64,000 nucleotides of DNA. It comes from a virus. The DNA lies in the IMG/VR virus record IMGVR_UViG_3300021400_000072. One strand, written 5' to 3'. The translations under genes were made by a program, and so were the position numbers. Position 1 is the stretch's first letter, and each line of letters begins with the position of its first letter. The notes under the pieces were generated by a model that did no database searches, was not told the DNA's origin, and saw only the letters and a list, made by a program, of their open reading frames with translations. Shown piece by piece: positions 2,860 to 19,936 of the stretch.

Positions 2860-2868
2860 ATATTTCTT

Positions 2869-3392: not shown

Positions 3393-3791
3393 ATATAAGA
3401 TAGATGCTTGCCAACGCTTTAGCCCCAGCTCGGGTATCTATCATACCCTACTCCCACAAACTTGGGATGCAGTAAGAGTTTCACCTGTATAACTCTGTAA
3501 AGATACTGTATCTTCTACGGCGTACAGTTCACTCACATTACCGGATTCTTTTAATCACTCCTAAAGAATCTAACTGGCTACATTTTAGCAGCTTAGATTT
3601 ACATTGGCGGAAGGTAAATCAACTTCCTCTTTTACTCAAATTTTGAAAATTTGAGATAGGTTGATCCTACACCTAAAGGACTTTTTCCAGTAACACCCCA
3701 AAAAGCAAAGCGGCTATCCTATCAACAGCTTAGATTTACACATTCAACCGAGTAGATTTACATATTAATAGGAAGGTAAATCAACTTCCTA

Positions 3792-3864
3792 ACGACCTAG
3801 TGGGGAATTGAACCCCAGTCTCTCGGGCGACAACCGAGTGTAATTACCTTTATACGACAAGGCC
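3792..3864 (-). tRNA. tRNA-Asp(GTC)
   Basis: Anticodon stem CTCGG/CCGAG with loop TTGTCGC; T-arm TGGGG-TTCAATT-CCCCA; acceptor has one mismatch. Confidence 0.55.
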
Positions 3865-4049
3865 AAACATTAAATAGCTTAGTCCATTTCTTAGGCTCCC
3901 TTCTCACTATAGCCTGAATTCCACAGGTCATGACTCCTGTTATTCTAGGTAGTTCACTATGGTCTCGCTCTCCCGACCGCCGTGATTTGGTGGACTCTCT
4001 TGATGTTTATGCGCACTATTAAATCAAGTCACCATTGCTATTTATGTAG

Positions 4050-4122
4050 CGGCCCCAGAAGGGTTCGAACCTTCGACATAACGGTTAACAGCCGTTCGCT
4101 CTGCCAACTGAGCTATAGGGCC
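4050..4122 (-). tRNA. tRNA-Asn(GTT)
   Basis: GGCCCTA-TA-GCTC-AGTTGGCA-GAGC-G-AACGG-CTGTTAA-CCGTT-ATGTC-GAAGG-TTCGAAC-CCTTC-TGGGGCC-G; clean cloverleaf. Confidence 0.85.
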
Positions 4123-4224
4123 AAATATGAGGGTTACTTTGCGTCTTTATATACCGTTTTCCACTAAAGCCACATATCTTATGCCGGTGGTAGTTTACCC
4201 TCAAAATCCATGATAACGGTTTAA

Positions 4225-4299
4225 TCATCCCTACAGGCTTTGAACCTGTGTTTCAAAATTGAGAATTTTGTGTCCTGAACCGAACTAGACGAAGGGACG
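4225..4299 (-). tRNA. tRNA-Glu(CTC)
   Basis: Anticodon stem CAAAA/TTTTG with loop TTCTCAA; T-arm ACAGG-TTCAAAG-CCTGT; acceptor CGTCCCT/AGGGATG. Confidence 0.6.
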
Positions 4300-4377
4300 A
4301 CAGTGCTTTTTCTGGCGTCACACTTTCCGCCTTGAGCCTGAGAACTTTTTAAAGGGAGTTTCTGAACTCATGCCGTT

Positions 4378-4557
4378 TTAACCCTCGTCCGCACGGACAT
4401 AATTTTCTGTTACTTCATAATGAAATCCAATCCAACCAAATCTATCTTCCAAAAATCTCACAGCAGAGAAGCCTTCAACAAACGTAATATGCTTCTGATT
4501 TACATCGTCAAGATACTCAACCATGTAGATAACAGCAGTTCTCTCATTCTTTCTCAT
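4378..4557 (-). CDS. small hypothetical protein (59 aa)
   Basis: ATG at 4557 with RBS AGGGGG 8 nt upstream; TAA at 4378; promoter repeat at 4612-4652 immediately upstream. Confidence 0.5.
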   Translation of the reverse strand: MRKNERTAVIYMVEYLDDVNQKHITFVEGFSAVRFLEDRFGWIGFHYEVTENYVRADEG

Positions 4558-4611
4558 AATAAAGACCCCCTGAAATGATATTTTTTAGTTTGTTTTTGTT
4601 TCTTTTTCTTA

Positions 4612-4652
4612 CGATATAAATATTATAACAAAAAATTTTTAAAAATTCAAAT
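4612..4652 (-). promoter_or_regulatory. promoter repeat TTGAAT-N17-TTATAAT
   Basis: acgatataaatattataacaaaaaatttttaaaaattcaaat. Confidence 0.55.
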
Positions 4653-4782
4653 AATATGCAGTGTGCTGTTACGCCAAAGGGAAGTCAGCCCTTACCAGTT
4701 ACGGGGTGGCCTTCTACTTCTATCATACGATAGTCCCACTCTTTAAAAGATGGATGCTTTTAATCCCACTTTCTACATATAA

Positions 4783-4853
4783 AGCCCCTCCCCGGATTTG
4801 AACCGAGATACAGTGATTACAAATCACTAGTGTTACCGTTACACCAAAGGGGC
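4783..4853 (-). tRNA. tRNA-Thr(TGT)
   Basis: D-stem GTGT/ACAC; anticodon stem AGTGA/TCACT with loop TTTGTAA; T-arm CTCGG-TTCAAAT-CCGGG; acceptor GCCCCTT/GAGGGGC. Confidence 0.7.
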
Positions 4854-5029
4854 ACGCGTACCGCCGCAGTGATTATAGAGATGCTTCGCGGTTTTCCTGG
4901 GTTTCATTCTCTTTTTTGTTAATTAACTTTATAAGCTATAGGTTGCTACCCCAGTCTAACGATGACCGACGACCTGTGAATTAAAGGTTTTAACAGGTTT
5001 TACTTACCTAATTATGCTACGAAAGCATA

Positions 5030-5103
5030 TGGACCACTAGGGATTTGAACCCTAATCTGACAGATTAAGAGTCTGCTATGTTAACCGTTAACACCAGTAA
5101 TCC
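5030..5103 (-). tRNA. tRNA-Lys(CTT)
   Basis: Anticodon stem GCAGA/TCTGT with loop CTCTTAA; T-arm TAGGG-TTCAAAT-CCCTA; acceptor GGATTAC/GTGGTCC with two G-U pairs. Confidence 0.55.
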
Positions 5104-5213
5104 AGGCTTATACAGCTACATACCTACTATATCAGGACATTACTCTGATTTTCTAAGTTTTTCTTAGTATGTTATGATTTTACATTATATAGTGTTATGG
5201 ACCCTGTATAACG

Positions 5214-5285
5214 TGCGTCCGGTGGGAGTTGAACCCACGATATACAGGTTAAAAGCCTGTTGCCATACCGCTTGGCTACGGACGC
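5214..5285 (-). tRNA. tRNA-Lys(TTT)
   Basis: GCGTCCG-TA-GCCA-AGCGGTA-TGGC-A-ACAGG-CTTTTAA-CCTGT-ATATC-GTGGG-TTCAACT-CCCAC-CGGACGC-A. Confidence 0.85.
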
Positions 5286-5346
5286 TTATTAAATTTTTAT
5301 AAATGCCCGTAGGCTTGCGTTTTCGTTTCATTTTTTATTCCCTCAC

Positions 5347-5392
5347 TTTGTATAAATATTATAACAAAAATTTTTTAAAAATTCAAATAAAA
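5347..5392 (-). promoter_or_regulatory. promoter repeat TTGAAT-N17-TTATAAT
   Basis: gtataaatattataacaaaaattttttaaaaattcaaat. Confidence 0.55.
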
Positions 5393-5508
5393 TTTGAAGG
5401 GTTGCATCGAAGATTCTTAGGTAGTCTTACAACGGATTGATTACCGACGCCCATGACGTGTCTCTCGTCCGTGTCCCATTTTTATTCTCTTCACAAATCT
5501 TATTTGAG

Positions 5509-5580
5509 AGCAGACAATGGGAATCGAACCCACATTTTTAGCTTGGCAAGCTAACATATTAACCGTTATATTATGCCTGC
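5509..5580 (-). tRNA. tRNA-Gly(GCC)
   Basis: Anticodon stem TTAGC/GCTAA with loop TTGCCAA; T-arm GTGGG-TTCGATT-CCCAT; acceptor GCAGGCA/TGTCTGC. Confidence 0.7.
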
Positions 5581-5810
5581 TTGAACTAGGATATATGGCC
5601 AACTTACCTAGATATATTTTAGCACCTTACCAGGCCGCCCTCATTTTAGTTACCATAAGCAATTGGCCGCGTGCTCACCAAGCCGCCGGATTGGGTTAAG
5701 TACCCAATAACTCCTTATTTTTCTTTCGTGAAATAAAGCAACCCGACTACGTTCTTTAACCTCTCGTAATAAAGAAGACCACCTCTTTCTAGCATCCTGT
5801 GGTCAGGGAC

Positions 5811-5882
5811 AGCCCCATGTGGGAATCGAACCCACCTATCTAGCTTGGAAGGCTAGCATTTTAGCCGATAAATCAATGGGAC
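5811..5882 (-). tRNA. tRNA-Gly(TCC)
   Basis: Anticodon stem CTAGC/GCTAG with loop CTTCCAA; D-stem ATTT/AAAT; T-arm GTGGG-TTCGATT-CCCAC; acceptor GTCCCAT/ATGGGGC. Confidence 0.7.
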
Positions 5883-5887
5883 AGATA

Positions 5888-5950
5888 TAAAAACTATTAA
5901 AGGTACGCTTTATGGGTGGAAGCGGCGCGTACTTGATTTTAATAGTTTTT
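5888..5950 (-). other. long leader hairpin between promoter 5953-5995 and tRNA-Gly(TCC)
   Basis: AAAACTATTAAA...TTTAATAGTTTT outer stem with inner GTACGC/GCGTAC stem. Confidence 0.4.
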
Positions 5951-5952
5951 AT

Positions 5953-5995
5953 TTGTTATGATAATATTATATCAAAAATTTTTGAATATTTCAAA
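5953..5995 (-). promoter_or_regulatory. promoter TTGAAA-N17-TATAAT
   Basis: Minus-sense TTGAAAtattcaaaaatttttgaTATAAT. Confidence 0.5.
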
Positions 5996-6008
5996 TTATT
6001 TTTGACCT

Positions 6009-6308
6009 TTATTTAGAAAAATAATATCTTCGCCAATACTTATAAAAATCTTTTAATGTAGGATAATCTTCTTGCCAAACAATACCATACATATTAGGAT
6101 GAAAATATTCAAATTTAGCATCTTTCCATGTCCATCTACTAATATAGTCATGTATATGCTATGTTTCAAAGACTTTTTTATAAGCATTTCCATTAGGAAG
6201 AATAATTTTACTACGTCTTATTCTTTTATTTGCTTGTCTTTTGTTTCGTTTAGGAATAGGCGTACGCCCATCTGTATAAACAGGATTCTTTTTATATGAA
6301 CGTGACAT
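6009..6308 (-). CDS. basic hypothetical protein (~99 aa) with one in-frame TAG
   Basis: ATG at 6308 with RBS AAAGGAG; ORF runs to TAA at 6009 through one TAG (absent from the ORF track for that reason). Likely cotranscribed with tRNA-Ile and the tRNA-Gln-like gene. Confidence 0.45.
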
Positions 6309-6323
6309 ATTTTTCTCCTTTGA

Positions 6324-6395
6324 TTGCGAGGGTAGGATTCGAACCTACAATCACCGGGTCAAAAACCGGCCGCTTTACCGTTAGCGTACCTCGCT
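6324..6395 (-). tRNA. tRNA-Gln(TTG)-like with 8-nt anticodon loop (TTTTTGAC) and unpaired A1:A72
   Basis: D-arm CGCT-AACGGTAA-AGCG; anticodon stem (G)CCGG/CCGG(T) enclosing 8 nt; T-arm GTAGG-TTCGAAT-CCTAC. Arm sequences resemble E. coli tRNA-Gln1 except for the loss of the position-39 nucleotide. Confidence 0.45.
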
Positions 6396-6517
6396 TACTT
6401 ATCATACCTTTTTATCTGTCTGAGAGTAGCTACCTCTCCCCATCTACTTACCACAATCCTTGATAATATTCTTTGATAAGCATAATACATGTTATATGAC
6501 GTCATTTTATGTATTAG

Positions 6518-6591
6518 TAGGGGACCTGGGACTCGAACCCAGGACACGCACCTTATAAGGATGCTGCTCTCACCTACTGAGCTAGTCCCCT
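6518..6591 (-). tRNA. tRNA-Ile(TAT)
   Basis: AGGGGAC-TA-GCTC-AGTAGGTGA-GAGC-A-GCATC-CTTATAA-GGTGC-GTGTC-CTGGG-TTCGAGT-CCCAG-GTCCCCT-A. Confidence 0.8.
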
Positions 6592-7274: not shown

Positions 7275-7355
7275 TTCATTTCTCCTTTATTTTATAAATA
7301 TATTTTACTAAAAATTTTCAATTTTTTCAAATCGGATATTTTTTTGATTTAATGA

Positions 7356-7928
7356 CTAACTTAATTCAATTATATTATCACAAATTTTACAAGAAGTAGG
7401 TTCTATCAAACATCTTCTACTACATCTTGACCGATATTCTCCAAATTGAGGAAGAATTGTACTATTAATTTCTTCTCCATCATAATTATAAATTATATCT
7501 TTTAATTTCCCATCCCATTTATGTTCTATTCCATAAATTTCATATAAAGTATTATACGCTTTATTTCCATTAATATCCACGAATTCAAACGTATCTATGA
7601 ATTGAGCATAATATGGTATATCTTCTGGACGAATAAAGAAATTTCTTATAGTGTCTATACTATCCCATTTTTTCTCACAATAATTGCAAAAACATCTTAG
7701 GCGGATTCCCTTTTTCTTAGTAAAATCCCTTGTAATTTTCATCATAAAAGCTAAATTTCCGCCAATTCTAATGTCTGTTACATTTAAAGAACAAAATCCA
7801 AGCAGATTTTCCCAATCACAGCAAATATATTGATAATAATGAGGAATGTTTAATGAATTGAATTTTTCTTCTATTTCTTTATTATAAATGACACTTCGTA
7901 CCGATATATTTGAATATATTTCCGCCAA
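7356..7928 (-). CDS. Cys-rich hypothetical protein (190 aa)
   Basis: ORF with multiple CxxC pairs. Confidence 0.5.
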   Translation of the reverse strand: MAEIYSNISVRSVIYNKEIEEKFNSLNIPHYYQYICCDWENLLGFCSLNVTDIRIGGNLAFMMKITRDFTKKKGIRLRCFCNYCEKKWDSIDTIRNFFIRPEDIPYYAQFIDTFEFVDINGNKAYNTLYEIYGIEHKWDGKLKDIIYNYDGEEINSTILPQFGEYRSRCSRRCLIEPTSCKICDNIIELS

Positions 7929-8130
7929 TGCACCTAAAATTGTAAAATCTTTTTCATCTAAAGGTACTGTTGTAATAATATTAATACGATAATCTTTATA
8001 TTCAGAAAGAAAATCATATAATTCTTTTATTTTAGGTTTATATATAATATTAATTTCTATTTTATCTTTATCGAAATATTTAAAGTTTCTATAAAATGGT
8101 ATCTAAAATTTCATTCTAATCCTATCCTCT

Positions 8131-8769
8131 CTACTCTCGGAATCCTGAAAAATCAATAATAATAGGATGACCATTTTTATATCCTACATTATCATAAGTT
8201 AAATCATCATTCCATTTAAGTTTTTTAATTAAAGTAAGAAACTCTTTAAACTTTTTTGGCCCATAATATTTTAATAAATCTATACACCAATCACTATTTA
8301 AATCATACCAACAATTAATTTTATGTAAAAAGGAATCCATTAATTCTCTTTTTTCTTTTGTTTTGTTATATGAGTTATTAAAAGGGGTACATTTTTCTTG
8401 AAGATAAATAGGATAATCATTAGCATAGCCAATAAAAATAGTTTCTGCAAAGCAATCTTTAAAAGGGGTAGAATAAATATTTTCATATCGTTCTACTTCT
8501 ACATTACAGTAATCCCATTCAAGTTCAGAGTTTGCACCAATAAAATTACAAAAACAATCTTCATAATATCCCTGGAAAGGAATTTTTATAACATAATCTT
8601 TATTACGTGGCATAATTACAAGTTTTGTTGCACCAAAATCATAATTAAAAATATACCCTTTATCAAAAAGATATAAAGTTAATTCATCTACTCTTGTATC
8701 ATCAAAAGTAGGATTAAAAAAATTAAAACCTTCAAACATATTAAGAATTTCATCTTCATTAAATGTCAT
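8131..8769 (-). CDS. hypothetical protein (212 aa)
   Basis: ORF; hairpin + T-run terminator at 8827-8868 upstream of the next unit. Confidence 0.55.
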   Translation of the reverse strand: MTFNEDEILNMFEGFNFFNPTFDDTRVDELTLYLFDKGYIFNYDFGATKLVIMPRNKDYVIKIPFQGYYEDCFCNFIGANSELEWDYCNVEVERYENIYSTPFKDCFAETIFIGYANDYPIYLQEKCTPFNNSYNKTKEKRELMDSFLHKINCWYDLNSDWCIDLLKYYGPKKFKEFLTLIKKLKWNDDLTYDNVGYKNGHPIIIDFSGFRE

Positions 8770-8868: not shown

Positions 8869-9729
8869 TTAAATTTTAACAGCTTTACAACGGTTAAGAA
8901 CAGTTTGTTTTACACCATTATAAATCTGATGTTTCTTTACAGTTCCGGTAAGAAGAATAGTATCTCCTTTTTCAATGTCTTCATCAAGACCTGCGCCAGA
9001 GCAAAACCATGTAAGTACATTTTCACCCATTTTGAAAGTATACAGAATAGAAGTTCCATAATAACTTTCAACTGTGCGGGAACCTACAAGAGTAACATGA
9101 AGGTCTCTAAGACGTTCTTTCTCTTCTCCGATATATTCAGAGTTAGATTTTGGCATACATGCTTCTTTGGCGGCATCTGCTATTTCTTTAGCTTCATCCT
9201 TAATAAAGGCTTTCTTAATACGCCATTTCCAGTCAAAAACTTCATCAAAAGGAATAGAAGTCATTTTATATCCTGCGGGAACTTCTACGGGATGGGAAGC
9301 ATACCAGCCAAGATGAGGCTCAAAACGGCAACCAGCTTCTTTAAGAACATCCTTAATAGCATAAGTATCTCCAAGAATAAGCCAAACAAGAGGATTCTCT
9401 ACATCATAACCATTTTCCGCAAGGTAAATCCGCTTATTCTCCTCACTTGCAGCCTCCAGGCCAAGCATTTCTGCGGCTTTCTTTTCTGCTTTCCTCGTTT
9501 TTGCTTTTTCCTGATTAGCAACATACTTCTCATACTCCTCAGGAGTATAAGCCTTTACCCACTGACCCAGGCGGCCGCTACCATTACAACGGAAGCATGT
9601 ACCAAACCATGCGTAGACACCAGTCCCGCCACATCTATCACAAACTTCCTCAATATATGCTTTATGAGTGTTCTCATCTACCTTTTTAATAGTTGCATGC
9701 GCGTAAGAAGGGGCTACCATCCAAGTCAT
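8869..9729 (-). CDS. hypothetical protein with N-terminal zinc ribbon (286 aa)
   Basis: CDRCGGTG...CFRCNGSG motif. Confidence 0.55.
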   Translation of the reverse strand: MTWMVAPSYAHATIKKVDENTHKAYIEEVCDRCGGTGVYAWFGTCFRCNGSGRLGQWVKAYTPEEYEKYVANQEKAKTRKAEKKAAEMLGLEAASEENKRIYLAENGYDVENPLVWLILGDTYAIKDVLKEAGCRFEPHLGWYASHPVEVPAGYKMTSIPFDEVFDWKWRIKKAFIKDEAKEIADAAKEACMPKSNSEYIGEEKERLRDLHVTLVGSRTVESYYGTSILYTFKMGENVLTWFCSGAGLDEDIEKGDTILLTGTVKKHQIYNGVKQTVLNRCKAVKI

Positions 9730-9749
9730 ATTCTTTCTCCTTTTTCTGA

Positions 9750-9995
9750 TTAAACTCTGCGTTCTACTTCTCGTTTAATTCTTGCTTTGTCTTTTGCGGA
9801 AAGAGTGTCAAGATTAAGACCGTGTTTTGCGAGAATTTCCTCTTGCATATCATTAATATCATAATCTTTTCTTGCGTAAGTAACAAAATCATTAATTGCG
9901 GCATTTATCTTTGCCGTTTTAGTAGTTACCATATTATCCATTCCCGCAGATTCCATCATATAAAGACCATAAGGTGTACCAAACATTTTTTTCAT
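9750..9995 (-). CDS. hypothetical protein (81 aa)
   Basis: ORF preceded by an AT-rich promoter-like repeat at 10020-10050. Confidence 0.5.
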   Translation of the reverse strand: MKKMFGTPYGLYMMESAGMDNMVTTKTAKINAAINDFVTYARKDYDINDMQEEILAKHGLNLDTLSAKDKARIKREVERRV

Positions 9996-10048
9996 TTCCT
10001 TTCTTTCCTTATCTTTATATATATTATATAAAAAATTTTAAAAAAAAT

Positions 10049-10075
10049 AAAGGGGATGTATTACATCCCCTAAAT
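10049..10075 (-). terminator. intrinsic terminator after lysin gene
   Basis: GGGGATGTA-at-TACATCCCC stem followed (minus sense) by T8. Confidence 0.6.
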
Positions 10076-10076
10076 A

Positions 10077-11825
10077 TTATTTATGAAAAGTCTTATTTAA
10101 ATTATTTTTTGAACAGCTGATTATCATATTGTCTGGATAACAATCAACATAACATTCTCCATTTTCGTATGCCATCATAACAATAGCACCTTTATCAGTA
10201 AAGACTTTATAAGTTAATTTGCGGCCTCCGCTTGATTTACTATGATGATAATTAGATAATCCAACTTTAGGTGAACAAGCATTAATTTGAATTATCTTAA
10301 TACCGTTTCTGTCAGAGTGCCATTGTAATTTAAATACATCACATTTTAATTGATTCTTTTTCTATGCTACTAAAGCATCAATAGCCTAATAAGAGAGGTC
10401 CCCAGCAGTGAAGAATTTCCATCCGTTTAAATTAAACATTAATGCAACAGACATCATATTTACAAAATGATGGTCATCAGTTTGTTTTAATTTAGAACGT
10501 TTTACTTGCCAAGACCAATCTAGTTTAATATTACCTGCGGACCAAGTAAAACCGTTAGATATGTATTTATAATTAATTCTCTTATCTTTAGCTATTGTTC
10601 CGATACTTTTTAAAGTAGAAATAGCTTTTTTCGCGGCTTTTACAGATTCCATTTCTTTATAATCTGATATAAAAATATTCTCTACTGTAAAAGTCTGGCA
10701 AATAGATTTTAAAATACTTAAATTTGCATGATCCCCGTGTCCGTGAGAAATAAATATAGCGTTTATTTTTGGCGGATTAATCTTTTTTAGCTTTTTAATT
10801 GTATCTCCCCCGCCAGGACCCGTATCTATTAAAACACAATTTTTAATTGTTTTATTATCATCTGCATACTCGGTGATAAGATAACTGTCACCATATAAAT
10901 TACTATTAGATTCAGACGTCCAAATTTGATGTATTCTTATTTTATTTTTTTTTGATGAAGGGGCTTGAGTTAATATTTCATTAACCTTCTTTTGTACTTT
11001 AGTTGTATCATATCCACAGAATTTTAATAATAATACTCTTATTTCACCTTTATCAAATTTATTTGCTATTACACATTGGGCGGCCGCCTATACAGTTTTA
11101 CCTTTTAGAGCATATATTTCATTAATATGAGTTTGAACTTTGTTAGCCCATGAAGATAAACGTTTTGTTCGATAGTCATTTTTACCCATGTATCCTGCAA
11201 TTGTAGCAATAGCAAGAGCATGAACAGTATTAGATTGATTTGAAACAATCTAATTTACTTTATTTTGTATTGCTTTTGCGTTCTATGTGCCAAAAGCGGC
11301 AAGCATAGCAGTTCTATTAGTACCAGATCCATAAGTGCCAAGAATTACCTAAGCCGCGCAAATAGTCGTTTGAAGATTATTCATTATAGGCATAGCATTA
11401 TATTTAGGTCTAATGTATCCTAAAACAAATCTACCTTTATATGTTCTACGACTACAACCACCATTATAATTTCCTGAAATAGTTCTGTTATATCCTACAC
11501 AGAATTCGGTATGATTAGGCTTTTTATTACTGTCACAATAGATGATAATATCTCCAGGGCGGACGCCTGAAGTTCCATTATGCCAAATTCCTAATTTCTT
11601 TGCTTTTGATATAGCATCACCAGAAATTTGAGAATATCCTCCTATTGTATCTATTCCGCCTGCATCCTATAAAGCTGCCATAATTGTCATTGTACCCCAA
11701 GCCGCAGACATTTTAGCACTATGATTATGTTTTTTTAATGTGTTTACAACATCCTAATGTGCGGTCTTACTACCGTCATATTTATTATAGGCTGTTAAAA
11801 CATCCCAAACTGTACATTTTCCCAT
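10077..11825 (-). CDS. putative lysin: N-terminal CHAP/NlpC-P60-like Cys-His hydrolase fused to C-terminal metallo-beta-lactamase-fold domain; TAG-recoded
   Basis: ATG at 11825 with RBS AAGGAGG. Reading frame continuous to TAA at 10077 through about 8 in-frame TAG codons. Motifs ...GDIIIYCDSN...HTEFCVGY... and ...ISHGHGDH.... Confidence 0.6.
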
Positions 11826-11837
11826 TTATTGTCCTCC

Positions 11838-12593
11838 TTATAAATTAACATCACTTGAAATGTAATATCCTGTCATTTTATAAGTTTTACAGAATTTTTG
11901 AATACGTGCTTTAAGATTTGCGGAAGTTGTATATTCTAATAAAAATGTTTGCATTTTATGACGAAGAATTCGTTTCATGTGACTTTTATACCATGAGTGC
12001 ATATCTTTTTTCTGCTAACCGAATTTTCCCTTTCCGCTATAGCTTTTAATTAAACTATAAACTTCCTCTTGTGTAACACCATCTATAAATGTGATTGTTT
12101 TATGAGAAGAATCTTTATCCATAAGTTTATCTAAAAACTAACTTCCGCCATTTATCATTATATATTTAGTTTTATCTATTGCCCGTATTCTTTTTAAGAG
12201 AGTAATAATACCATTATACATTTCTGTACTTTTGTGATATTCATATACATCTAGGTTATCTAGCCACCAACCTTGAAATCCGCGGTTTTTTAGTTCTCTT
12301 GCTCTATATACAATAAAATCTCTAACTGCGGGTTTCCTTAAATCGAGATAATATTCATGGGGCCAGTCCTATAATTTACTAAGCCGATAGGGTTTTAATT
12401 GTTTATAATAACTTCTCTAATTAGAAATAGAGCCGGCAGATAAATACCCTAAAAGGGTATAACCCGCGGCTCTTAAATCCTAAATCTATTTATTTGTATA
12501 ATCCTATGGCTAAATAACTAAAATAGTTTTAGTTTTTGCTTTTCCTAATTTCTTAGGAGTAGCTTTTGTTGTTAACATAACAATATAATTCAT
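11838..12593 (-). CDS. glycoside hydrolase-like TIM-barrel (GH114-like); TAG-recoded
   Basis: Continuous frame from ATG 12593 to TAA 11838 with about 9 in-frame TAGs; motifs RGFQGWWLDNLDV and MINGG. Confidence 0.45.
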
Positions 12594-12598
12594 TTATA

Positions 12599-13051
12599 TT
12601 ACCATTGCCAATCTATTTGACCATAAGGGTAGTATGGCATCCCTTCTTCTGTTCGCCATCGGCCTCTTCGTTTAATTTGCCGAAGATGAAGTTTTGTATT
12701 ATATCTTTGAGTTTTATGAGTTCCAGGGATATAAATATAACGAATTGAGCCATTTCTATGACGAATATCTAAATAGTGGCTATCCTTTCTTTGCATTTTT
12801 CCGTTATGTTTAAAATAATAGAATTTACCATTGATTACTTTAATACAATCTTTTGCAAGTTCTCCACGTTTATGAAGAGCGGAAGTAGATTGATAGCGGT
12901 AATACCAGTCGCCGCCAGATTTAAAAAGACCATATTTATTTGATGAATGAGTTTTTGCTTCTACTTTAACGGCAGATATTGCTATTTCCGCCAAAATTAC
13001 AAGAATAATTATGATGAATGTAAGAATAATAGTTTTATTCTTTTTTTGCAT
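12599..13051 (-). CDS. membrane-anchored protein with cell-wall-binding-like YG repeats (150 aa)
   Basis: N-terminal TM helix; GDWYYRY / GKFYYFKHNGKM repeats; adjacent to lysin genes. Confidence 0.5.
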   Translation of the reverse strand: MQKKNKTIILTFIIIILVILAEIAISAVKVEAKTHSSNKYGLFKSGGDWYYRYQSTSALHKRGELAKDCIKVINGKFYYFKHNGKMQRKDSHYLDIRHRNGSIRYIYIPGTHKTQRYNTKLHLRQIKRRGRWRTEEGMPYYPYGQIDWQW

Positions 13052-13094
13052 TATATTTTCTCCTTTATAATATTATAAAAAAAGACATACTAAA

Positions 13095-13457
13095 TTAAGG
13101 AAAGATGTCCTTACTTTCTTTCCAAAATTTTTCATATTCTTTTCGTTCGTTAGAGGCATTTTGCTTGCGGACAAAATCTATCCATCGAGAACGAATTTTT
13201 TCAATAGCAGGCATTAAATAACATTTATCTATAGTTTCTGGGTCAGAATGATAGAAAATTTCTTTAGGGATAGACACTTCTTCTGTAATTCTACCTTTTG
13301 ATACAGGTGAAAAATCTGTTAATTTAATGTGAATATTTCCATCAGAAAGTAAATTAAATTCCATGCTAAGATTTTGACTGAGGTATTTAAATAAAACGGT
13401 ATTCATTTTAATCCTTTCTTTTACCAGTTTTGAGTTACAATGAGGCGGCCACCGCAT
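13095..13457 (-). CDS. hypothetical protein (120 aa)
   Basis: ORF. Confidence 0.5.
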   Translation of the reverse strand: MRWPPHCNSKLVKERIKMNTVLFKYLSQNLSMEFNLLSDGNIHIKLTDFSPVSKGRITEEVSIPKEIFYHSDPETIDKCYLMPAIEKIRSRWIDFVRKQNASNERKEYEKFWKESKDIFP

Positions 13458-13915
13458 TTACAAGTATATCTTTCGGGATATTTTACCACTTTACCTGCTC
13501 TATGATAATAACCAACAATTTCTCCACAAGAGGAACAAGTAACAATGTATTTATATGTATCTGGAGAATATGCGGCGACCTTGGTTTTTGTGGTATTAAA
13601 GGTACAATTAATGCGGGCACACATTTCTTTAAATACTTTATCGTGACCATGGTCCTCATGGGTTTCTACGATAACGAGATAGTGCGCGCATTCGTGTTTG
13701 ATTACATCATCTATTGTTGCGGGGTTGCCTTCTTCAAGTAATTTGTAACTAAATTCCATACTTTCAGGGGTAACATATCCGCCACAAGAGAAGAAAAGGA
13801 CTCTACCAAGAGTTCTGGTAAGTCTTTTGTTAATTTTTACAGGAATTGTAAAATTATAACCTGCGGATTTGCAAATTTCTGTACAACGAGCGGTAAGGTC
13901 CTTTTCTGTCATCAT
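13421..13915 (-). CDS. SprT-like zinc metalloprotease domain protein
   Basis: HECAHYLV...HEDHGHD motif followed by Zn-ribbon CSSCG...CKCGG. Confidence 0.6.
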   Translation of the reverse strand: MMTEKDLTARCTEICKSAGYNFTIPVKINKRLTRTLGRVLFFSCGGYVTPESMEFSYKLLEEGNPATIDDVIKHECAHYLVIVETHEDHGHDKVFKEMCARINCTFNTTKTKVAAYSPDTYKYIVTCSSCGEIVGYYHRAGKVVKYPERYTCKCGGRLIVTQNW

Positions 13916-13938
13916 AATGATTTCCTTTCTTTTGTTAT

Positions 13939-14475
13939 TTATTCGTTAATAACTTCAATACAACAAGATTTCATTACTTCAAGAGCAGCTTTATGCTTTT
14001 CGGGGGTGGTTCCCGCACAACAAGAGGCATCTACAATAATTGGAATATTTGGATACATTGCTCTAAGAATAAGTGCATTAGAAATAACACAAATATCTGT
14101 ACATACTCCTACTATTTGAATTGAAGAATCTTCATTATCTTCCATACGATAAGAAATCCATTTAGTTATTCCAAAAGTTTCCTTTTGTATTGCACCTATA
14201 GAGTATGGAAAAAGTTCATTTATAATACACCATCCAGGAGTACCTGTTATACAATGTTTAGGAACTTTCTGTTCTTCTATTAAAAAATTATCATTTCCAT
14301 AATTTATAGAATGAGAATCTTGAGTAAAAATAATATTAGTTTTTTGTTTACAACTTAATTTTTTATAAGATTCTATTTTATTTTTAATATTAGGTACAAT
14401 TGCGCGGGCTTCAGGTGTTCCGAGAGGACCAGTTACAAAATCGTTTTGCATATCAATTACAATAAGTGCTTTCAT
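13939..14475 (-). CDS. isochorismatase-family cysteine hydrolase (nicotinamidase/YcaC-like)
   Basis: N-terminal KALIVIDMQNDF hallmark and later ...GVCTDICV... catalytic Cys context. Confidence 0.65.
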   Translation of the reverse strand: MKALIVIDMQNDFVTGPLGTPEARAIVPNIKNKIESYKKLSCKQKTNIIFTQDSHSINYGNDNFLIEEQKVPKHCITGTPGWCIINELFPYSIGAIQKETFGITKWISYRMEDNEDSSIQIVGVCTDICVISNALILRAMYPNIPIIVDASCCAGTTPEKHKAALEVMKSCCIEVINE

Positions 14476-17877: not shown

Positions 17878-18061
17878 TGTAAATTATGTAAAATTGAAGT
17901 AAATTGGGGATGTGTGGTGGCCGACCTACCTACTTCCTATATCTCATTAGAGTATGGATAACGAATATTAACGGGAAAAATTTTTTTTTATAAAAAAAAT
18001 TCTCCCCCATTATAATTATAATAAAAAATTATAAAGAAATCAAATCCATAAAACATTAAAC

Positions 18062-18090
18062 GAGGCTCACTTCGGTGAGCCTTTTTTTTA
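18062..18090 (+). terminator. intrinsic terminator ending the plus-strand block
   Basis: GAGGCTCAC-ttcg-GTGAGCCTC followed by T8. Confidence 0.7.
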
Positions 18091-18345
18091 TATTATCTCA
18101 TATTTTTTTAATAAAGTCAAGTGCGGTCTCGGCGGCAAGGCCATATGCCTCGGTCTGAACCTAAGGGCCATATAATGCGGGAAGCAGGTGATACTGCACA
18201 TGAGTCCATCTCCGCCTGACGGATTCACATAGGTGAATTCAGTTATGTGGATAGGTTCACCTTTGTGGATTGTGCATTTTGCACAAAAATTTCGGGATTT
18301 TTAAGATGATTTTTGTGCAACTTTTTTTGAAAAAAATATTGACAT

Positions 18346-18405
18346 TGGGTAGGTTTTGTGGTATAATCGGCGCGGGTCAGAGACCGCGCGCCGCTGATTG
18401 TTAAA
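18346..18405 (+). promoter_or_regulatory. plus-strand consensus promoter TTGACA-N17-TATAAT followed by GC hairpin (first intergenic module)
   Basis: TTGACAttgggtaggttttgtggTATAAT then GCGCGG-gtcagaga-CCGCGC. Confidence 0.5.
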
Positions 18406-18429
18406 ATTTTAACAGTATGTAGATATAAA

Positions 18430-18465
18430 AAAAAACAGGCGTTACCGCCTGTTTAAATCTATTAA
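18430..18465. terminator. bidirectional terminator at the left end of the early minus-strand block
   Basis: A9 ACAGGCG-ttac-CGCCTGT TTTAAAT. Confidence 0.6.
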
Positions 18466-18614
18466 AGAAAAATCAAAACCCATAATGAAAGCAAGAATTG
18501 CATCTGCTATAAGAATGAGAGGCCAAAGGGGTGTAGGTTCACGAAAGTAGAATGTAGAGACCGTACATAAAACAAAAAACCATACAACGCATCTAATCAT
18601 GGAAAGAAACATTT

Positions 18615-18803
18615 TTAAATCTCCTTTAAAATGTGAATATAGCCGAATCGGAAAAGGACTTTATAAAAGTCCCATCCGATTCTAATTTTATCTTTTTCTT
18701 TTGTTGGTAGTTTAATTATTTTCATCATTTTTAAATATCCATTCATTATAAATATTATCGGAAGAAGCAAGTATGTCGCAATATTTGGAAAAAGGACAGT
18801 CAC
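18615..18803 (-). CDS. small hypothetical protein (62 aa)
   Basis: ORF. Confidence 0.35.
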   Translation of the reverse strand: MTVLFPNIATYLLLPIIFIMNGYLKMMKIIKLPTKEKDKIRIGWDFYKVLFRFGYIHILKEI

Positions 18804-18872
18804 AGCAAAAATCTGTTTCTTGACATGCTTCTTTTATAATTTCCATACCTTTTTTCATTTTATCAATCCAAT

Positions 18873-19091
18873 TCATCTGCTTTTCTCCCTTGCAATATCA
18901 CTAAACTTGTACCAGATACCGCCGTCATCTTCCCAATACTTCTGCAATTCATCATAAGGAATAAACTTCTGTGCAAACATGATAACACCAAAAGCCTGTG
19001 CACGACAGTTCATAACCATATCAGCAGAAGAACATCCTTTTGCCTGAATAAGCATCTTTTCTACAAATTCTCTAACATCATTCATTGTCAT
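18873..19091 (-). CDS. small hypothetical protein (72 aa)
   Basis: ORF. Confidence 0.45.
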   Translation of the reverse strand: MTMNDVREFVEKMLIQAKGCSSADMVMNCRAQAFGVIMFAQKFIPYDELQKYWEDDGGIWYKFSDIAREKSR

Positions 19092-19093
19092 AA

Positions 19094-19309
19094 TTATAAC
19101 CCCCTGTTGATTGTGAGTCTGGCGAACAGTTTACAAATGTAAACCCATTCCTTATCATCAAGGGCAAAAAATTCAAAATCATCTTCATAAGGAGAATCAG
19201 GAATACCTGTAAGAATCCATGCTCCATAGATAGATTCATCTCCCAGATTGATTATATAATTATGCATACCTTTAAGAAGTTCTACTCTTGTTTTTTGAAG
19301 TTCTGTCAT
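19094..19309 (-). CDS. small hypothetical protein (71 aa)
   Basis: ORF, translationally coupled to 18873..19091. Confidence 0.45.
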   Translation of the reverse strand: MTELQKTRVELLKGMHNYIINLGDESIYGAWILTGIPDSPYEDDFEFFALDDKEWVYICKLFARLTINRGL

Positions 19310-19490
19310 GTTATTTCCTTTCTGTGCTTTCCTCTTGACAATTATTATTATATCAGATTATCGGGAAAATACAATAGGTAATGTTGTACAAAAATGCGGA
19401 TTGATTTTTGTTGAATACTACGTATTGACAAAAATTCGGCGCTGACACAATGGTCAGCGCCCCGACCATTTTCTGGAAGGGGCGTTGCTA

Positions 19491-19709
19491 TTAATCCTCA
19501 AGTAGTTTTTTTGTTACGAGTTCTCTTACACGGTTTTCCATTTCATTAATCTCTTTTTCATTATAGTAAAAGAAATCATCAGCTTTATCAAGTCCTTCAA
19601 AACAGTCACAGATAGCATTATTGCAATCTTCCGCAATAATTTCAAGAACTTCATTAACAATTTCATCAATGTCAATATTAATATCAATAGAACTAATCTT
19701 AAATACCAT
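19491..19709 (-). CDS. small acidic hypothetical protein (72 aa)
   Basis: ORF. Confidence 0.45.
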   Translation of the reverse strand: MVFKISSIDINIDIDEIVNEVLEIIAEDCNNAICDCFEGLDKADDFFYYNEKEINEMENRVRELVTKKLLED

Positions 19710-19720
19710 ATTTACCCCCT

Positions 19721-19924: not shown

Positions 19925-19936
19925 ATTTACCCCCTT

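What the first reader, a model, noticed from the sequence alone, without database searches (positions are those of the whole stretch)
10077..13051. Recoded lysis cassette on the minus strand: CHAP-like + metallo-beta-lactamase-fold fusion, GH114-like hydrolase, and a YG-repeat membrane protein
The two hydrolase genes contain in-frame TAGs, although they sit among standard-code minus-strand genes. That ties their expression to the late (suppressor-dependent) program. The upstream membrane protein 12599..13051 has no TAG. A peptidase-like N-terminus (Cys...His-x-E-F-C) fused to an HxHxDH MBL fold is an unusual lysin architecture.
Basis: partly seen in the sequence, partly recalled or inferred. 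Interest (0 to 1): 0.55.

Follow-up and report, generated by a model that had tools for sequence, protein, structure and literature searches.

The report
Glu-recoded phage wall-degrading operon
A gut phage carries a three-gene operon of cell-wall-targeting proteins whose two enzymes can only be made once the stop codon TAG is read as an amino acid, and the evidence says that amino acid is glutamate, not the glutamine assumed for all such phages so far.

Summary
Three tightly packed minus-strand genes lie at 10077-13051. The two enzyme genes hold 16 in-frame TAGs in 833 codons; seven flanking genes hold none in 1129 (p = 1e-6).

The domain calls need correcting. Gene A is an NlpC/P60-fold domain, then three CW_7 repeats, then an intact metallo-beta-lactamase-fold phosphodiesterase. 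Gene B is a GH114-superfamily glycosidase with its catalytic Asp and Glu present. Gene C is more likely a secreted choline-binding-repeat-like protein than a holin.

In standard-code relatives the A/B pair, sometimes fused, sits beside a canonical holin and a GH25 or amidase endolysin. It therefore looks like an accessory lysis module, probably acting on secondary wall polymers of Lachnospiraceae.

The main surprise is the code. TAG columns in genes A and B, the portal and the large terminase behave like Glu codons (E 0.42-0.74, Q 0.07 or less). The CUA suppressor tRNAs of close relatives share acceptor stems with the phage tRNA-Glu genes. Table-15 (Gln) translations are therefore probably wrong here.

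The parts
12599..13051 (-). Gene C, 150 aa, no TAG. It has a hydrophobic N-terminus (about residues 1-32, window 12956-13051) ending in V-E-A|K, followed by a basic mature domain with two choline-binding-type repeats (about residues 44-90, window 12782-12922).
   Evidence: Translation. Pfam Choline_bind_3 and Choline_bind_1 score below their cut-offs (E 5e-4, 3.5e-3). In 16 homologues the N-terminus varies but the (V/A)-x-(A)|K site and the mature part are nearly invariant. A profile search finds about 35 small homologous clusters plus multi-repeat proteins that Pfam confirms as choline-binding-repeat proteins. The AlphaFold2 model is poor (pLDDT 53).
11838..12593 (-). Gene B, 251 aa, 8 TAG: a GH114-superfamily (beta/alpha)8 glycosidase. 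The putative nucleophile Asp112 (12258-12260) and acid/base Glu177 (12063-12065) are encoded by ordinary codons.
   Evidence: Pfam PF03537, E 1.7e-18, 67 bits against a cut-off of 27. The family profile matches 9ep5, Ega3 6oj1, PelA 5tcb and TM1410 at 1e-11 to 1e-7. D112, N113, D115, T174, Q175 and E177 are invariant in 35 homologues. Catalytic pairs of the solved enzymes are from PMC12054363.
11382..11825 (-). Gene A N-terminal domain (residues 1-148): NlpC/P60/CHAP-type papain fold. The nucleophile position is Gly44 (11694-11696). His105 (11511-11513), Glu107 and Asn119 are kept.
   Evidence: AlphaFold2 pLDDT 91.8. Foldseek against PDB finds MepS, Acd24020, CwlO, LytE and PlyPy (E about 1e-4, TM 0.52-0.63). 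Weak Pfam CHAP and NLPC_P60 hits occur in 11 and 8 of 32 homologues. The column is Cys 91, Gly 2, Gln 1. Of 41 highly conserved columns, only this one and one other deviate.
10962..11369 (-). Gene A central module (residues about 153-288): three CW_7 (Cpl-7-type) peptidoglycan-binding repeats.
   Evidence: Pfam CW_7, E 5e-20. It aligns over residues 153-285 to the Cpl-7 wall-binding module 5i8l. PHROG endolysin families match.
10077..10940 (-). Gene A C-terminal domain (residues 296-582, plus the stop codon): binuclear metallo-beta-lactamase-fold phosphodiesterase of the Pce/ComEC-CTD group. Ligand positions are H361-x-H363-x-D365-H366 (10728-10745), N456, D476 and H503.
   Evidence: The family profile matches Pce/CbpE (12qj, 1wra, 2bib) at E 1.6e-22 to 1.9e-21, then the ComEC MBL domains at 2e-17 to 1e-12. 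The ligand columns are invariant in 23 homologues. The window protein keeps all 26 highly conserved columns.
10051..10071 (-). Intrinsic-terminator-like hairpin (9 bp, 5 GC pairs) followed by TTATTTTTTT, directly after the gene A stop codon.
   Evidence: sequence
10362..12512 (-). Span of the 16 in-frame TAG codons. Gene A residues 24, 53, 159, 181, 192, 246, 480, 488; gene B residues 28, 30, 36, 38, 59, 75, 152, 193. Most lie at positions where homologues have Glu.
   Evidence: Coordinates. Column contents. Gene B residue 28 is Glu in 90 of 90 distant homologues.

Best explanation
Genes C, B and A probably form one operon in a large (about 140 kb) siphophage of Lachnospiraceae-type Clostridia. 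The operon encodes cell-envelope-targeting proteins that act at the lysis stage.

Gene C has no TAG. It can be translated as soon as the mRNA exists, and it is exported as a small basic wall-binding protein.

Genes B and A stop at codons 28 and 24 unless a phage CUA suppressor tRNA is present. That tRNA lies about 2 kb beyond the window start in near-identical genomes. It is derived from tRNA-Glu and inserts glutamate, so TAG acts here as a third Glu codon.

Once made, B and A have no signal peptides and would reach the wall through holin lesions. B is a GH114-type endo-glycosidase that would cut a GalN/GalNAc-type wall or matrix polysaccharide. A is anchored to peptidoglycan by its CW_7 repeats, and its Pce-like binuclear phosphodiesterase domain would cut phosphodiester-linked wall decorations or polymers (teichoic-acid type). 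Its NlpC/P60 domain has lost the Cys nucleophile in this lineage and probably only binds.

The pair is accessory to a canonical peptidoglycan hydrolase encoded elsewhere in the genome.

Shown: gene structure, TAG distribution, domain identities, active-site residue status, synteny in relatives, Glu-like behaviour of TAG. Inferred: substrates, timing, export route, co-transcription.
For: Gene structure and TAG contrast. TAG takes 47% of Glu positions in A+B, 25.5% in the late block (p = 0.009) and 0 of 89 in the flanks (p = 5e-11).

Domains.

Functional link of A and B:
- Single polypeptides fuse GH114 + NTD + CW_7 + MBL (P0023-26, P0047, P0057) or SPOR + NTD + MBL + GH114 (P0085).
- Many GH114 homologues carry SPOR.

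Lysis-cassette context in standard-code phages:
- L005/L006: GH114, NTD-CW7-MBL, a 131-aa gene, holin_6_1, GH25, integrase.
- L002: the fusion lies next to a GH25-ELLD-CW_7 lysin and TM proteins.
- L004: amidase-SPOR, the fusion, integrase.

No hydrophobic segment was found in A or B.

Host: homologues occur in Lachnospiraceae and Eubacteriales MAGs.

TAG = Glu:
- Genes A and B: E 0.42 of weighted column content, with Q absent from the top six. True Gln codons give Q 0.40; true Glu codons give E 0.52.
- Gene B residue 28 is E in 90 of 90 distant homologues.
- Portal: TAG columns give E 0.56 and Q 0.07, matching GAG (E 0.57) and not CAG (Q 0.58).
- Large terminase: E 0.74 and no Q-plurality column.
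- Suppressor acceptor stems match the phage tRNA-Glu(CUC) or tRNA-Glu(UUC) and no other of about 70 tRNAs.
- CW_7 scores 76.0 bits with E and 71.4 with Q.
Against: No experiment exists for any step. The window holds no holin, no canonical endolysin and no suppressor tRNA. It ends inside the tape-measure gene, before the usual lysis locus.

The operon lies about 25 kb from the structural block, on the other strand, among early-type genes. The promoter-like sites are not above chance.

The MBL domain also resembles ComEC nucleases, so DNA cannot be excluded as substrate. A PHROG 'tail protein' family contains the same MBL domain.

Global similarity of the suppressors to the phage tRNAs is not clearly Glu-like; top matches include Lys and Gln. 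Only the acceptor stems point to Glu.

Column statistics show which residue selection tolerates at TAG sites, not directly what the ribosome inserts. A Glu/Gln mixture is not excluded.
Confidence: 0.55

Rival explanations
1. The pair is the phage's primary endolysin system. B cuts the glycan and A cuts the rest of the wall, so no other peptidoglycan hydrolase is needed.
For: The EAD-CW_7-EAD layout is that of modular Gram-positive endolysins. PHROG endolysin families hit gene A. No other lysin was found among the window ORFs scanned.
Against: All three standard-code relatives examined keep a GH25 or Amidase_2-type endolysin directly beside the pair. The only peptidoglycan-cleaving-type domain (NlpC/P60) lacks its nucleophile here. 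The solved and characterised relatives of the GH114 family reviewed here act on galactosamine polymers, not peptidoglycan. The window does not cover the usual lysis locus downstream of the tail genes.
Confidence: 0.13
2. The enzymes are virion-associated depolymerases used at adsorption or entry to strip wall polysaccharide or teichoic acid. They are recoded simply because they are structural late proteins.
For: In L002 the fusion gene follows tail-fibre-like genes. A PHROG tail-protein family carries the same MBL domain (E 2.9e-8). Structural genes in this window are also TAG-rich.
Against: In the window the operon is separated from the structural block and lies on the opposite strand. Peptidoglycan-binding CW_7 or SPOR modules and positions next to holin and endolysin genes are typical of from-within lysins. 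No virion-attachment domain was detected.
Confidence: 0.12
3. The pair degrades an extracellular biofilm matrix rather than the wall. B would be a PelA/Ega3-like hydrolase for a cationic GalN/GalNAc exopolysaccharide, and the MBL domain a ComEC-like nuclease for the DNA bound to it, freeing progeny from the matrix.
For: Gene B's closest solved relatives are Pel/GAG hydrolases. The MBL profile also matches ComEC nuclease domains at 2e-17 to 1e-12, and NCBIfam ComEC_Rec2 at 1.5e-13 for P0049.
Against: Pce scores higher than every ComEC domain (83 against 66 bits). Both enzymes are repeatedly fused to peptidoglycan-binding modules (CW_7, SPOR) and to an NlpC/P60 domain, which points to the wall itself.
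Confidence: 0.1
4. TAG is read as glutamine, as in table 15. The Glu-rich TAG columns only reflect frequent, tolerated Glu-to-Gln replacements.
For: Gln is the only reassignment validated for phage TAG (crAss-like phages). Every paper on TAG-recoded phages read here treats TAG as Gln/table 15 or leaves the residue unassigned. Glu to Gln is a conservative change.
Against: Real Gln codons in the same alignments sit in Q-rich columns (Q 0.40-0.58, E 0.06-0.08). TAG columns match the GAG profile almost exactly in four protein families. Several columns contain only GAA, GAG and TAG across 60-80 sequences. The suppressor acceptor stems match tRNA-Glu, not tRNA-Gln.
Confidence: 0.06
5. The MBL domain is an Apyc1-like anti-defence nuclease that degrades cyclic-nucleotide immune signals, and the cassette is not about lysis.
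For: Precomputed PF23023 (Anti-Pycsar_Apyc1) hits are listed for many homologues. The PDB profile search lists Apyc1 7u2r at 1e-5.
Against: The direct Pfam score is 16 bits against a cut-off of 50 and covers only the HxHxDH region. Fusion to wall-binding and wall-hydrolase domains, and the position in lysis cassettes, do not fit a cytoplasmic signal-degrading enzyme.
Confidence: 0.02

Closest known systems
Pce / CbpE, teichoic-acid phosphorylcholine esterase of Streptococcus pneumoniae (PDB 1wra, 2bib, 12qj)
   Same: It is the best solved match of the gene A C-terminal domain (profile E 1.6e-22). It shares the binuclear MBL fold and the HxHxDH, Asn, Asp and His ligand columns. It is likewise joined to a cell-wall-binding repeat module, and it acts on a wall polymer rather than on a beta-lactam.
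   Different: Pce is a secreted bacterial enzyme with choline-binding repeats. Gene A has no signal peptide, uses CW_7 repeats, carries an extra NlpC/P60 domain and is phage-encoded. Substrate specificity was not tested, and the match covers about 200 of 287 residues.
Modular two-catalytic-domain Gram-positive endolysins with central Cpl-7/CW_7 repeats (for example the streptococcal lambdaSa2 lysin, recalled from memory), and Cpl-7 itself (PDB 5i8l)
   Same: Catalytic domain, CW_7 repeats, catalytic domain. The CW_7 module aligns to Cpl-7. The protein lacks a signal peptide and lies in a lysis-cassette context in relatives.
   Different: The second catalytic domain is an MBL phosphodiesterase instead of a glucosaminidase, amidase or muramidase. 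Two recent large endolysin surveys in the library list no Lactamase_B or GH114 domains. The first domain lacks its nucleophile here.
GH114 / GH166 / GH191 endo-alpha-1,4-galactosaminidases (Ega3, PelA hydrolase domain, TM1410)
   Same: Pfam PF03537 scores above its cut-off. The N-terminal half, including the nucleophile Asp motif, aligns. An invariant Glu lies 62-65 residues downstream, within the 58-69 spacing of the solved enzymes.
   Different: The phage family forms its own clade. It is often fused to SPOR, or to the NlpC/P60-MBL protein. Identity to the solved enzymes is low and alignable over only about 90-100 residues. The substrate is unknown.
Stop-codon-recoded late and lysis genes of gut phages (Borges et al.; table 15 TAG = Gln, table 4 TGA = Trp)
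   Same: In-frame stop codons are concentrated in structural and lysis genes and absent from neighbouring early-type genes. The phage encodes a CUA suppressor tRNA. The lysis enzymes are the most heavily recoded genes.
   Different: Here the reassigned codon behaves as Glu and the suppressors look tRNA-Glu-derived. The secreted or membrane protein of the cassette is the one gene without TAG, the reverse of the Agate example.
Non-catalytic NlpC/P60 domains such as RipD of Mycobacterium tuberculosis (PDB 4jxb, 4lj1)
   Same: An NlpC/P60 fold without the catalytic Cys. RipD appears among the fold matches.
   Different: In gene A only the Cys and one other conserved position have changed. The loss is confined to this phage and its near-identical cluster, so it is recent rather than a long-established binding domain.
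Ciliate nuclear codes with UAG (and UAA) = Glu
   Same: The same codon-to-amino-acid reassignment.
   Different: Those are eukaryotic nuclear genomes with genome-wide reassignment. Here a virus imposes the reading on a standard-code bacterial host and uses it in only part of its genes.

Membership tests
NlpC/P60 / CHAP papain-fold cell-wall peptidases | Papain-like alpha+beta fold | tested here: met
   AlphaFold2 pLDDT 91.8. The top 30 Foldseek PDB hits are NlpC/P60 or CHAP enzymes.
NlpC/P60 / CHAP papain-fold cell-wall peptidases | Nucleophile Cys at the N-terminus of the core helix | tested here: not met
   Position 44, at the start of helix 43-54, is Gly. The column is Cys in 91 of 94 homologues.
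NlpC/P60 / CHAP papain-fold cell-wall peptidases | Catalytic His on a beta-strand plus a third polar residue | tested here: met
   His105 (94/94), Glu107 (92/94) and Asn119 (93/94) are conserved and lie in strands 103-111 and 114-120.
NlpC/P60 / CHAP papain-fold cell-wall peptidases | Sequence-family membership (Pfam CHAP or NLPC_P60 above cut-off) | tested here: not met
   The window domain has no Pfam hit. Only weak hits (best E 0.006) occur in 11 and 8 of 32 homologues.
Metallo-beta-lactamase fold, Pce/ComEC-CTD phosphodiesterase group | HxHxDH motif and the downstream Asn/Asp/His metal ligands | tested here: met
   H361, H363, D365, H366, N456, D476 and H503 are all present and invariant in the family. 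They align to the Pce motifs HTHSDH, NSNS, GGD and HHHD.
Metallo-beta-lactamase fold, Pce/ComEC-CTD phosphodiesterase group | Significant sequence similarity to characterised members | tested here: met
   Profile against PDB: Pce 1.6e-22, ComEC 2.3e-17. Pfam Lactamase_B scores 34.8 bits against a cut-off of 22.7.
Metallo-beta-lactamase fold, Pce/ComEC-CTD phosphodiesterase group | Phosphorylcholine esterase (or other phosphodiesterase) activity | not testable with these tools
   Needs an enzyme assay.
GH114 superfamily (Pfam PF03537; CAZy GH114/GH191, related GH166) | Pfam model above the gathering score | tested here: met
   67.1 bits against a cut-off of 27.
GH114 superfamily (Pfam PF03537; CAZy GH114/GH191, related GH166) | Nucleophile Asp at the end of strand 4 and acid/base Glu about 58-69 residues later | tested here: met
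   D112 aligns to the DPDNVD motif of Ega3. E177 is invariant, 65 residues later. Neither is a TAG codon. The Glu assignment rests on spacing and invariance, not on a structural overlay.
GH114 superfamily (Pfam PF03537; CAZy GH114/GH191, related GH166) | Endo-alpha-1,4-galactosaminidase activity | not testable with these tools
   Needs substrate assays.
CW_7 (Cpl-7-type) wall-binding repeats | Pfam CW_7 above cut-off, in tandem copies | tested here: met
   71-76 bits against a cut-off of 25. Three repeat units align to 5i8l.
Choline-binding (CW_binding_1) repeat proteins (gene C) | Pfam Choline_bind repeat above cut-off | tested here: not met
   20.3 and 18.0 bits against cut-offs of 27 and 20.5. 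One family member, P0246, reaches the cut-offs.
Choline-binding (CW_binding_1) repeat proteins (gene C) | Profile similarity of the repeat region to confirmed repeat proteins | tested here: met
   Residues about 43-90 of the gene C profile hit 4-21 stretches in proteins that Pfam confirms as Choline_bind_1 and Choline_bind_3 arrays.
Holins (gene C) | Small protein whose conserved transmembrane segment(s) stay in the membrane, encoded beside the endolysin | tested here: inconclusive
   There is one N-terminal hydrophobic segment and the gene lies directly upstream of the hydrolases. However, the segment is the least conserved part and ends in a conserved signal-peptidase-type site. A family member in L003 is not next to lysins. 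There is no Pfam or PHROG holin hit.
Translation table 15 phages (TAG = Gln) | TAG positions align with Gln in homologues | tested here: not met
   Q makes up 0.07 or less of TAG columns in four protein families, against 0.40-0.58 for true Gln codons.
Translation table 15 phages (TAG = Gln) | Phage-encoded CUA suppressor tRNA | tested here: met
   None lies in the window. One is present in near-identical and related genomes: L091 12359-12431, L092 13637-13713, L093 1789-1864.
Recoding-gated lysis genes (Borges et al. model) | Lysis genes more heavily recoded than other genes, with early neighbours free of the codon | tested here: met
   47% against 25.5% against 0% of Glu positions.
Recoding-gated lysis genes (Borges et al. 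model) | Delayed translation until the suppressor accumulates | not testable with these tools
   Needs time-resolved transcript, tRNA and protein data.

The most novel reading that the evidence does not exclude
This clade of large Lachnospiraceae siphophages uses a genetic code not described for any virus or bacterium in the literature I could search. TAG = glutamate, implemented by CUA suppressor tRNAs that arose from the phage's own tRNA-Glu genes. These suppressors have C1-G72 or G1-U72 where the phage's own tRNA-Gln has A1-U72, and (from memory) bacterial tRNA-Gln needs a U1-A72 pair for transamidation. They would therefore stay charged with Glu in hosts that make Gln-tRNA by transamidation. 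TAG is placed preferentially at conserved, even invariant, Glu positions of the lysis-stage enzymes. Only correct suppression would then give active protein.
Probability: 0.8. Interest if true: 0.85.

Novelty: new variant of a known kind. Interest (0 to 1): 0.75.

Why it matters
Annotation and gene calling. The phage annotation and gene-calling approaches described in the papers read here translate recoded TAG as Gln. If TAG is Glu in this clade, every late protein of these phages is mistranslated in databases at 1-5% of its residues, often at conserved acidic positions. P0001 carries Q at all eight sites. That affects structure prediction, homology searches and any attempt to express these enzymes.

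Code evolution. It would show that phage stop-codon takeover is not tied to tRNA-Gln. It also gives a testable route through tRNA-Glu duplication and the host GluRS/GatCAB system.

Enzymology. The operon points to an undescribed, widespread class of accessory lysis enzymes: a Pce-like phosphodiesterase and a GH114-like glycosidase, separate or fused, carrying CW_7 or SPOR anchors. They probably strip secondary wall polymers of gut Clostridia, and they are candidates for enzybiotics and for probing Lachnospiraceae wall chemistry.

Tried and rejected
1. blastn (distant mode) of 9000-14000 against 50,697 phage records: no match. tblastn of gene A found only CW_7 hits in two Stenotrophomonas phages. 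No cultured or annotated relative exists.

2. N-terminal domain by sequence: no credible PDB hit (best E 0.05, to RNase P protein, judged spurious). The fold search was needed.

3. I first suspected that TAG152 of gene B (NGGS-TAG-F) was the catalytic Glu, because it aligns to NRGFE of PelA. I rejected this. Counting residues puts the PelA and Ega3 acid/base 58-63 residues after the Asp, which is E177 in gene B. Fused homologues have Val at position 152.

4. AlphaFold2 of gene C: pLDDT 53, not usable, so no fold search was run.

5. Isotype of the suppressors by global similarity to the phage's tRNAs: inconclusive, with Lys, Gln and Glu mixed. Only the acceptor stems are informative.

6. Search for the suppressor inside the window with ARAGORN, Rfam and a YTCTAAR scan: none. 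Three extra Rfam tRNAs read as Glu(UUC), Phe and Phe.

7. An exact 42-mer of the window's first tRNA in IMG/VR: no hit. A protein-anchored fetch worked instead.

A single protein was used.

9. The 400-aa late protein gave only 8 loci, too few for column statistics. The large terminase was used instead.

10. The Apyc1 (anti-Pycsar) reading of the MBL domain was rejected on score.

11. Pfam scores with TAG as E, Q, K or Y barely separate for GH114 (67.5, 67.1, 65.0, 61.5). This test is weak on its own.


Full report
**What is in the sequence**

With TAG read through, the minus strand between 10077 and 13051 holds three close-packed genes:
- Gene C, 12599-13051, 150 aa, no TAG.
- Gene B, 11838-12593, 251 aa, 8 TAG.
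- Gene A, 10077-11825, 582 aa, 8 TAG.

The spacers are 5 and 12 nt. Genes C and A have AAGGAG(G) ribosome sites (read directly from the sequence). All three end in TAA. A 9-bp GC-rich hairpin with a T-run lies at 10071-10051, directly after gene A. A promoter-like site precedes gene C (13079-13050), but such sites are not above chance in this AT-rich DNA. A single operon is therefore likely but inferred.

**Is the TAG pattern real?**

Genes A and B hold 16 TAG in 833 codons. The seven flanking minus-strand genes hold none in 1129 codons (Fisher p = 1e-6). Out-of-frame TAG density is the same in both sets. No gene examined uses TAG as its stop codon.

The whole plus-strand late block (37.7-64 kb) is TAG-rich. 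It includes a sigma factor, a split large terminase, the portal, head proteins and a protein of more than 2,800 aa, probably the tape measure. Two further minus-strand genes (7305-8195 and 8080-8769) also carry 4 TAG each, so the operon is one of several recoded islands. An identical protein (P0001) and about 100 homologues of gene A exist in public metagenomes. A 145-kb relative (L001) has the same gene order.

**Gene A**

Pfam and PHROGs give CW_7 repeats in the middle and an MBL domain at the C-terminus.

*N-terminal domain.* The 148 N-terminal residues have no sequence-family hit. Their AlphaFold2 model (pLDDT 91.8) matches NlpC/P60 and CHAP wall peptidases: MepS, Acd24020, CwlO, LytE and PlyPy (Foldseek E about 1e-4, TM 0.52-0.63). 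Weak CHAP and NLPC_P60 Pfam hits appear in a third of homologues.

The family's conserved Cys lies at the start of the core helix and is Cys in 91 of 94 homologues. It is Gly44 in the window and in P0001 only (GGT at 11694-11696). His105, Glu107 and Asn119 are kept. Of 41 highly conserved columns in this domain, the window departs at only two. This is a recent, specific loss of the nucleophile, not general decay. The neighbouring Tyr53, conserved in 78 of 94 homologues, is a TAG here.

*Central module.* Residues 153-285 align to the three-repeat wall-binding module of the Cpl-7 lysozyme.

[quoted passage not shown] ComEC MBL nuclease domains follow (2e-17 to 1e-12), and generic MBL enzymes are far behind. 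H361, H363, D365, H366, N456, D476 and H503 are invariant and align with the Pce motifs. The Apyc1 label attached to many homologues is a sub-threshold hit (16 bits against a cut-off of 50).

**Gene B**

Pfam Glyco_hydro_114 scores 67 bits against a cut-off of 27. The family profile matches GH114/GH191/GH166 structures at 1e-11 to 1e-7 over the N-terminal half, including the nucleophile motif. D112, N113 and D115, and further on T174, Q175 and E177, are invariant. The D112-E177 spacing of 65 residues fits the 58-69 of the solved enzymes. Neither residue is encoded by TAG.

**Gene C**

Across 16 homologues the first 30 or so residues are hydrophobic but variable in sequence. They end in a conserved (V/A)-x-(A)|K site. 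The remaining 118 or so residues are basic and almost invariant. That is the pattern of a cleaved signal peptide rather than of a holin helix.

Residues about 44-90 resemble choline-binding repeats. They score below the Pfam cut-offs. A profile search, however, hits many repeat units in proteins that Pfam confirms as choline-binding arrays, and also defines a small family of 135-187-aa secreted proteins. One family member is not next to lysins. The structure model was too poor to use. None of the roughly 70 Glu positions across the 16 homologues shows the 'Q' that marks a TAG in these database translations. Gene C is therefore consistently free of TAG.

**Context in relatives**

The two enzymes are functionally tied. 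Some phages encode them as one polypeptide, either GH114-NTD-CW_7-MBL of about 850 aa or SPOR-NTD-MBL-GH114 of 764 aa. Many GH114 homologues carry a SPOR domain.

In standard-code temperate phages the pair lies in the lysis cassette:
- L005/L006: GH114, NTD-CW7-MBL, a 131-aa gene, holin_6_1, GH25, integrase.
- L002: tail-fibre-like genes, the fusion, a GH25-ELLD-CW_7 lysin, TM proteins, integrase.
- L004: an amidase-SPOR C-terminus, the fusion, integrase.

A canonical peptidoglycan hydrolase is always adjacent, so the pair looks accessory. Neither A nor B has a hydrophobic segment. Homologues occur in Lachnospiraceae and Eubacteriales MAGs.

The window holds no holin or canonical endolysin among the ORFs scanned. 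It ends inside the probable tape-measure gene, before the usual lysis locus.

**What TAG encodes**

Four lines of evidence agree.

1. *Genes A and B.* For the 16 TAG positions, homologues of 70% identity or less show a weighted Glu frequency of 0.42. Gln is absent from the top six residues. The log-odds for Glu is +1.68 bits per site and every other residue scores negative. True CAA/CAG positions in the same alignments give Q 0.40 and E 0.08. True GAA/GAG positions give E 0.52. Gene B residue 28 is Glu in 90 of 90 distant homologues and 'Q' (that is, TAG) in all 30 close ones. Within the close clade TAG alternates with E at many sites.

2. *Portal.* I fetched DNA for 80 portal genes and built codon-aware alignments. 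In columns with at least 4 TAGs (n = 29) the other sequences are E 0.56, D 0.19 and Q 0.07. The plurality residue is E in 18 columns, D in 7 and Q in 1. This is the same profile as the minor Glu codon GAG (E 0.57) and unlike CAG (Q 0.58, E 0.06).

3. *Large terminase.* In 75 terminase fragments, columns with at least 3 TAGs (n = 19) are E 0.74, with E the plurality in 15 and Q in none. Many columns contain only GAA, GAG and TAG.

4. *Suppressor tRNAs.* The CUA tRNA lies about 2 kb beyond the window start in a near-identical 142-kb genome (L091) and in two relatives. The first five acceptor pairs are:

| tRNA | Acceptor pairs 1-5 |
|---|---|
| Suppressor, L091 | C-G, G-U, C-G, C-G, C-G |
| Suppressor, L093 | C-G, G-U, U-A, C-G, C-G |
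| Phage tRNA-Glu(CUC) | C-G, G-U, U-A, C-G, C-G |
| Suppressor, L092 | G-U, G-C, C-G, U-G, C-G |
| Phage tRNA-Glu(UUC) | G-U, G-C, C-G, U-G, C-G |
| Phage tRNA-Gln | A-U, G-C, G-C, G-C, C-G |

None of about 70 other tRNAs shares the suppressors' opening pairs. Global tRNA similarity is uninformative.

With TAG = E, the CW_7 Pfam score rises from 71.4 to 76.0 bits. Two TAG sites align to Glu in the Cpl-7 repeats themselves.

In the searchable library, the phage recoding papers I read treat TAG as Gln/table 15 or leave the residue unassigned (Lak). Searches for UAG/TAG-to-Glu phrases returned only non-phage papers, chiefly on ciliates.

From general knowledge, not tested here: many Firmicutes charge tRNA-Gln with Glu using a non-discriminating GluRS and then amidate it with GatCAB, which needs a U1-A72 pair. 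A Glu-derived suppressor with C1-G72 or G1-U72 would stay Glu.

**How it most likely works**

The operon mRNA yields the exported wall-binding protein C at once. B and A terminate at codons 28 and 24 until the Glu-inserting suppressor is available.

TAG takes 47% of Glu positions in these two genes, 25.5% in the late block (p = 0.009) and 0 of 89 in the flanks. This agrees with the published idea that lysis enzymes are the most strongly gated genes.

After holin action, B would cut a GalN/GalNAc-type polymer. A is held on peptidoglycan by CW_7, and its Pce-like domain would cut phosphodiester-linked decorations or polymers. Its P60 domain would be reduced to a binding role.

A single target would fit all three genes, but this is inference. 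It would be a phosphocholine-decorated, GalNAc-containing teichoic acid of the pneumococcal type. In pneumococcal teichoic acid, phosphocholine sits on GalNAc (abstract of PMC6809722).

The rivals are: a sole endolysin, a virion depolymerase, a matrix (Pel plus DNA) degrader, and an Apyc1-like anti-defence enzyme. They are weighed in their own section. None is excluded by experiment.

**Verdict**

The cassette is a new variant of known things: modular Gram-positive lysis enzymes, and recoding-gated late genes. Two points make it unusual:
- A widespread, undescribed accessory lysis pair, a Pce-like MBL phosphodiesterase plus a GH114-like glycosidase.
- Strong comparative evidence that this phage clade reads TAG as glutamate.

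Noticed in passing
window 1338-1930 (-): A full-length ROOL RNA (Rfam RF03087, 280.6 bits against a gathering score of 99.1) sits inside the tRNA array.
   Followed up: no
window 6324-6395 (-); also L091 5456-5527: A tRNA with an 8-nt anticodon loop (TTTTTGAC). ARAGORN calls it '???' with anticodon tttg; Rfam scores it as a tRNA at 51 bits. It is conserved in the near-identical genome. It may be an odd tRNA-Gln or tRNA-Lys, or a quadruplet/frameshift decoder.
   Followed up: partly
window 1-6591 (-) and L091 5246-15325: A very large tRNA array: 13 ARAGORN genes in this stretch of the window plus 4 more found only by Rfam, and 28 genes in the 15-kb relative locus. It covers most amino acids and includes tRNA-Glu(CUC), tRNA-Glu(UUC), tRNA-Gln(UUG) and the CUA suppressor, which lies just outside the window.
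   Followed up: partly
window 40403-41335, 41496-42251, 42611-43126 (+): The large terminase appears split. An N-terminal fragment matches PHROG terminase, and a C-terminal ORF follows after an intervening 251-aa ORF with an HNH-like motif (INHKDGNKLNNYIDNLQW). This looks like an intron or intein-type homing-endonuclease insertion. The endonuclease ORF itself holds 5 TAG.
   Followed up: no
window 37682-38794 (+): A phage sigma-factor gene (phrog_5767, E 1.7e-48) opens the late block and itself contains 10 TAG codons. Late transcription may therefore also depend on suppression.
   Followed up: no
window 7305-8195 and 8080-8769 (-): Two overlapping genes of unknown function, with 4 TAG each, lie among TAG-free genes on the same strand as the operon. 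The standard-code ORF 8131-8769 ends at a TAG that relatives read through (229 aa in L001).
   Followed up: partly
window 33255-35380 (-): A cluster of membrane-anchored proteins, TAG-free apart from one TAG in the 76-aa ORF: DUF5758 with an N-terminal TM segment, an SPFH/Band-7 protein, and two ORFs of 52 and 76 aa with very hydrophobic N-termini. They may be membrane-remodelling or lysis-timing candidates.
   Followed up: no
window 18000-33000: A stretch with higher GC (0.34-0.40) and few long ORFs under either the standard or the TAG-recoded code. Rfam finds only a lone tRNA-Lys at 24765-24837. The content is unexplained.
   Followed up: partly
L093 2485-2739: A related phage contig encodes a tmRNA (tag peptide ANEYQMAA) next to its suppressor tRNA.
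   Followed up: no
window 52567-53634 and 47250-48323 (+): Two abundant-looking virion proteins, phrog_2729 (annotated 'virion structural protein') and phrog_4088 (annotated function unknown), carry 0 and 1 TAG, while their neighbours carry 4-12. The most highly expressed late genes may avoid TAG.
   Followed up: no
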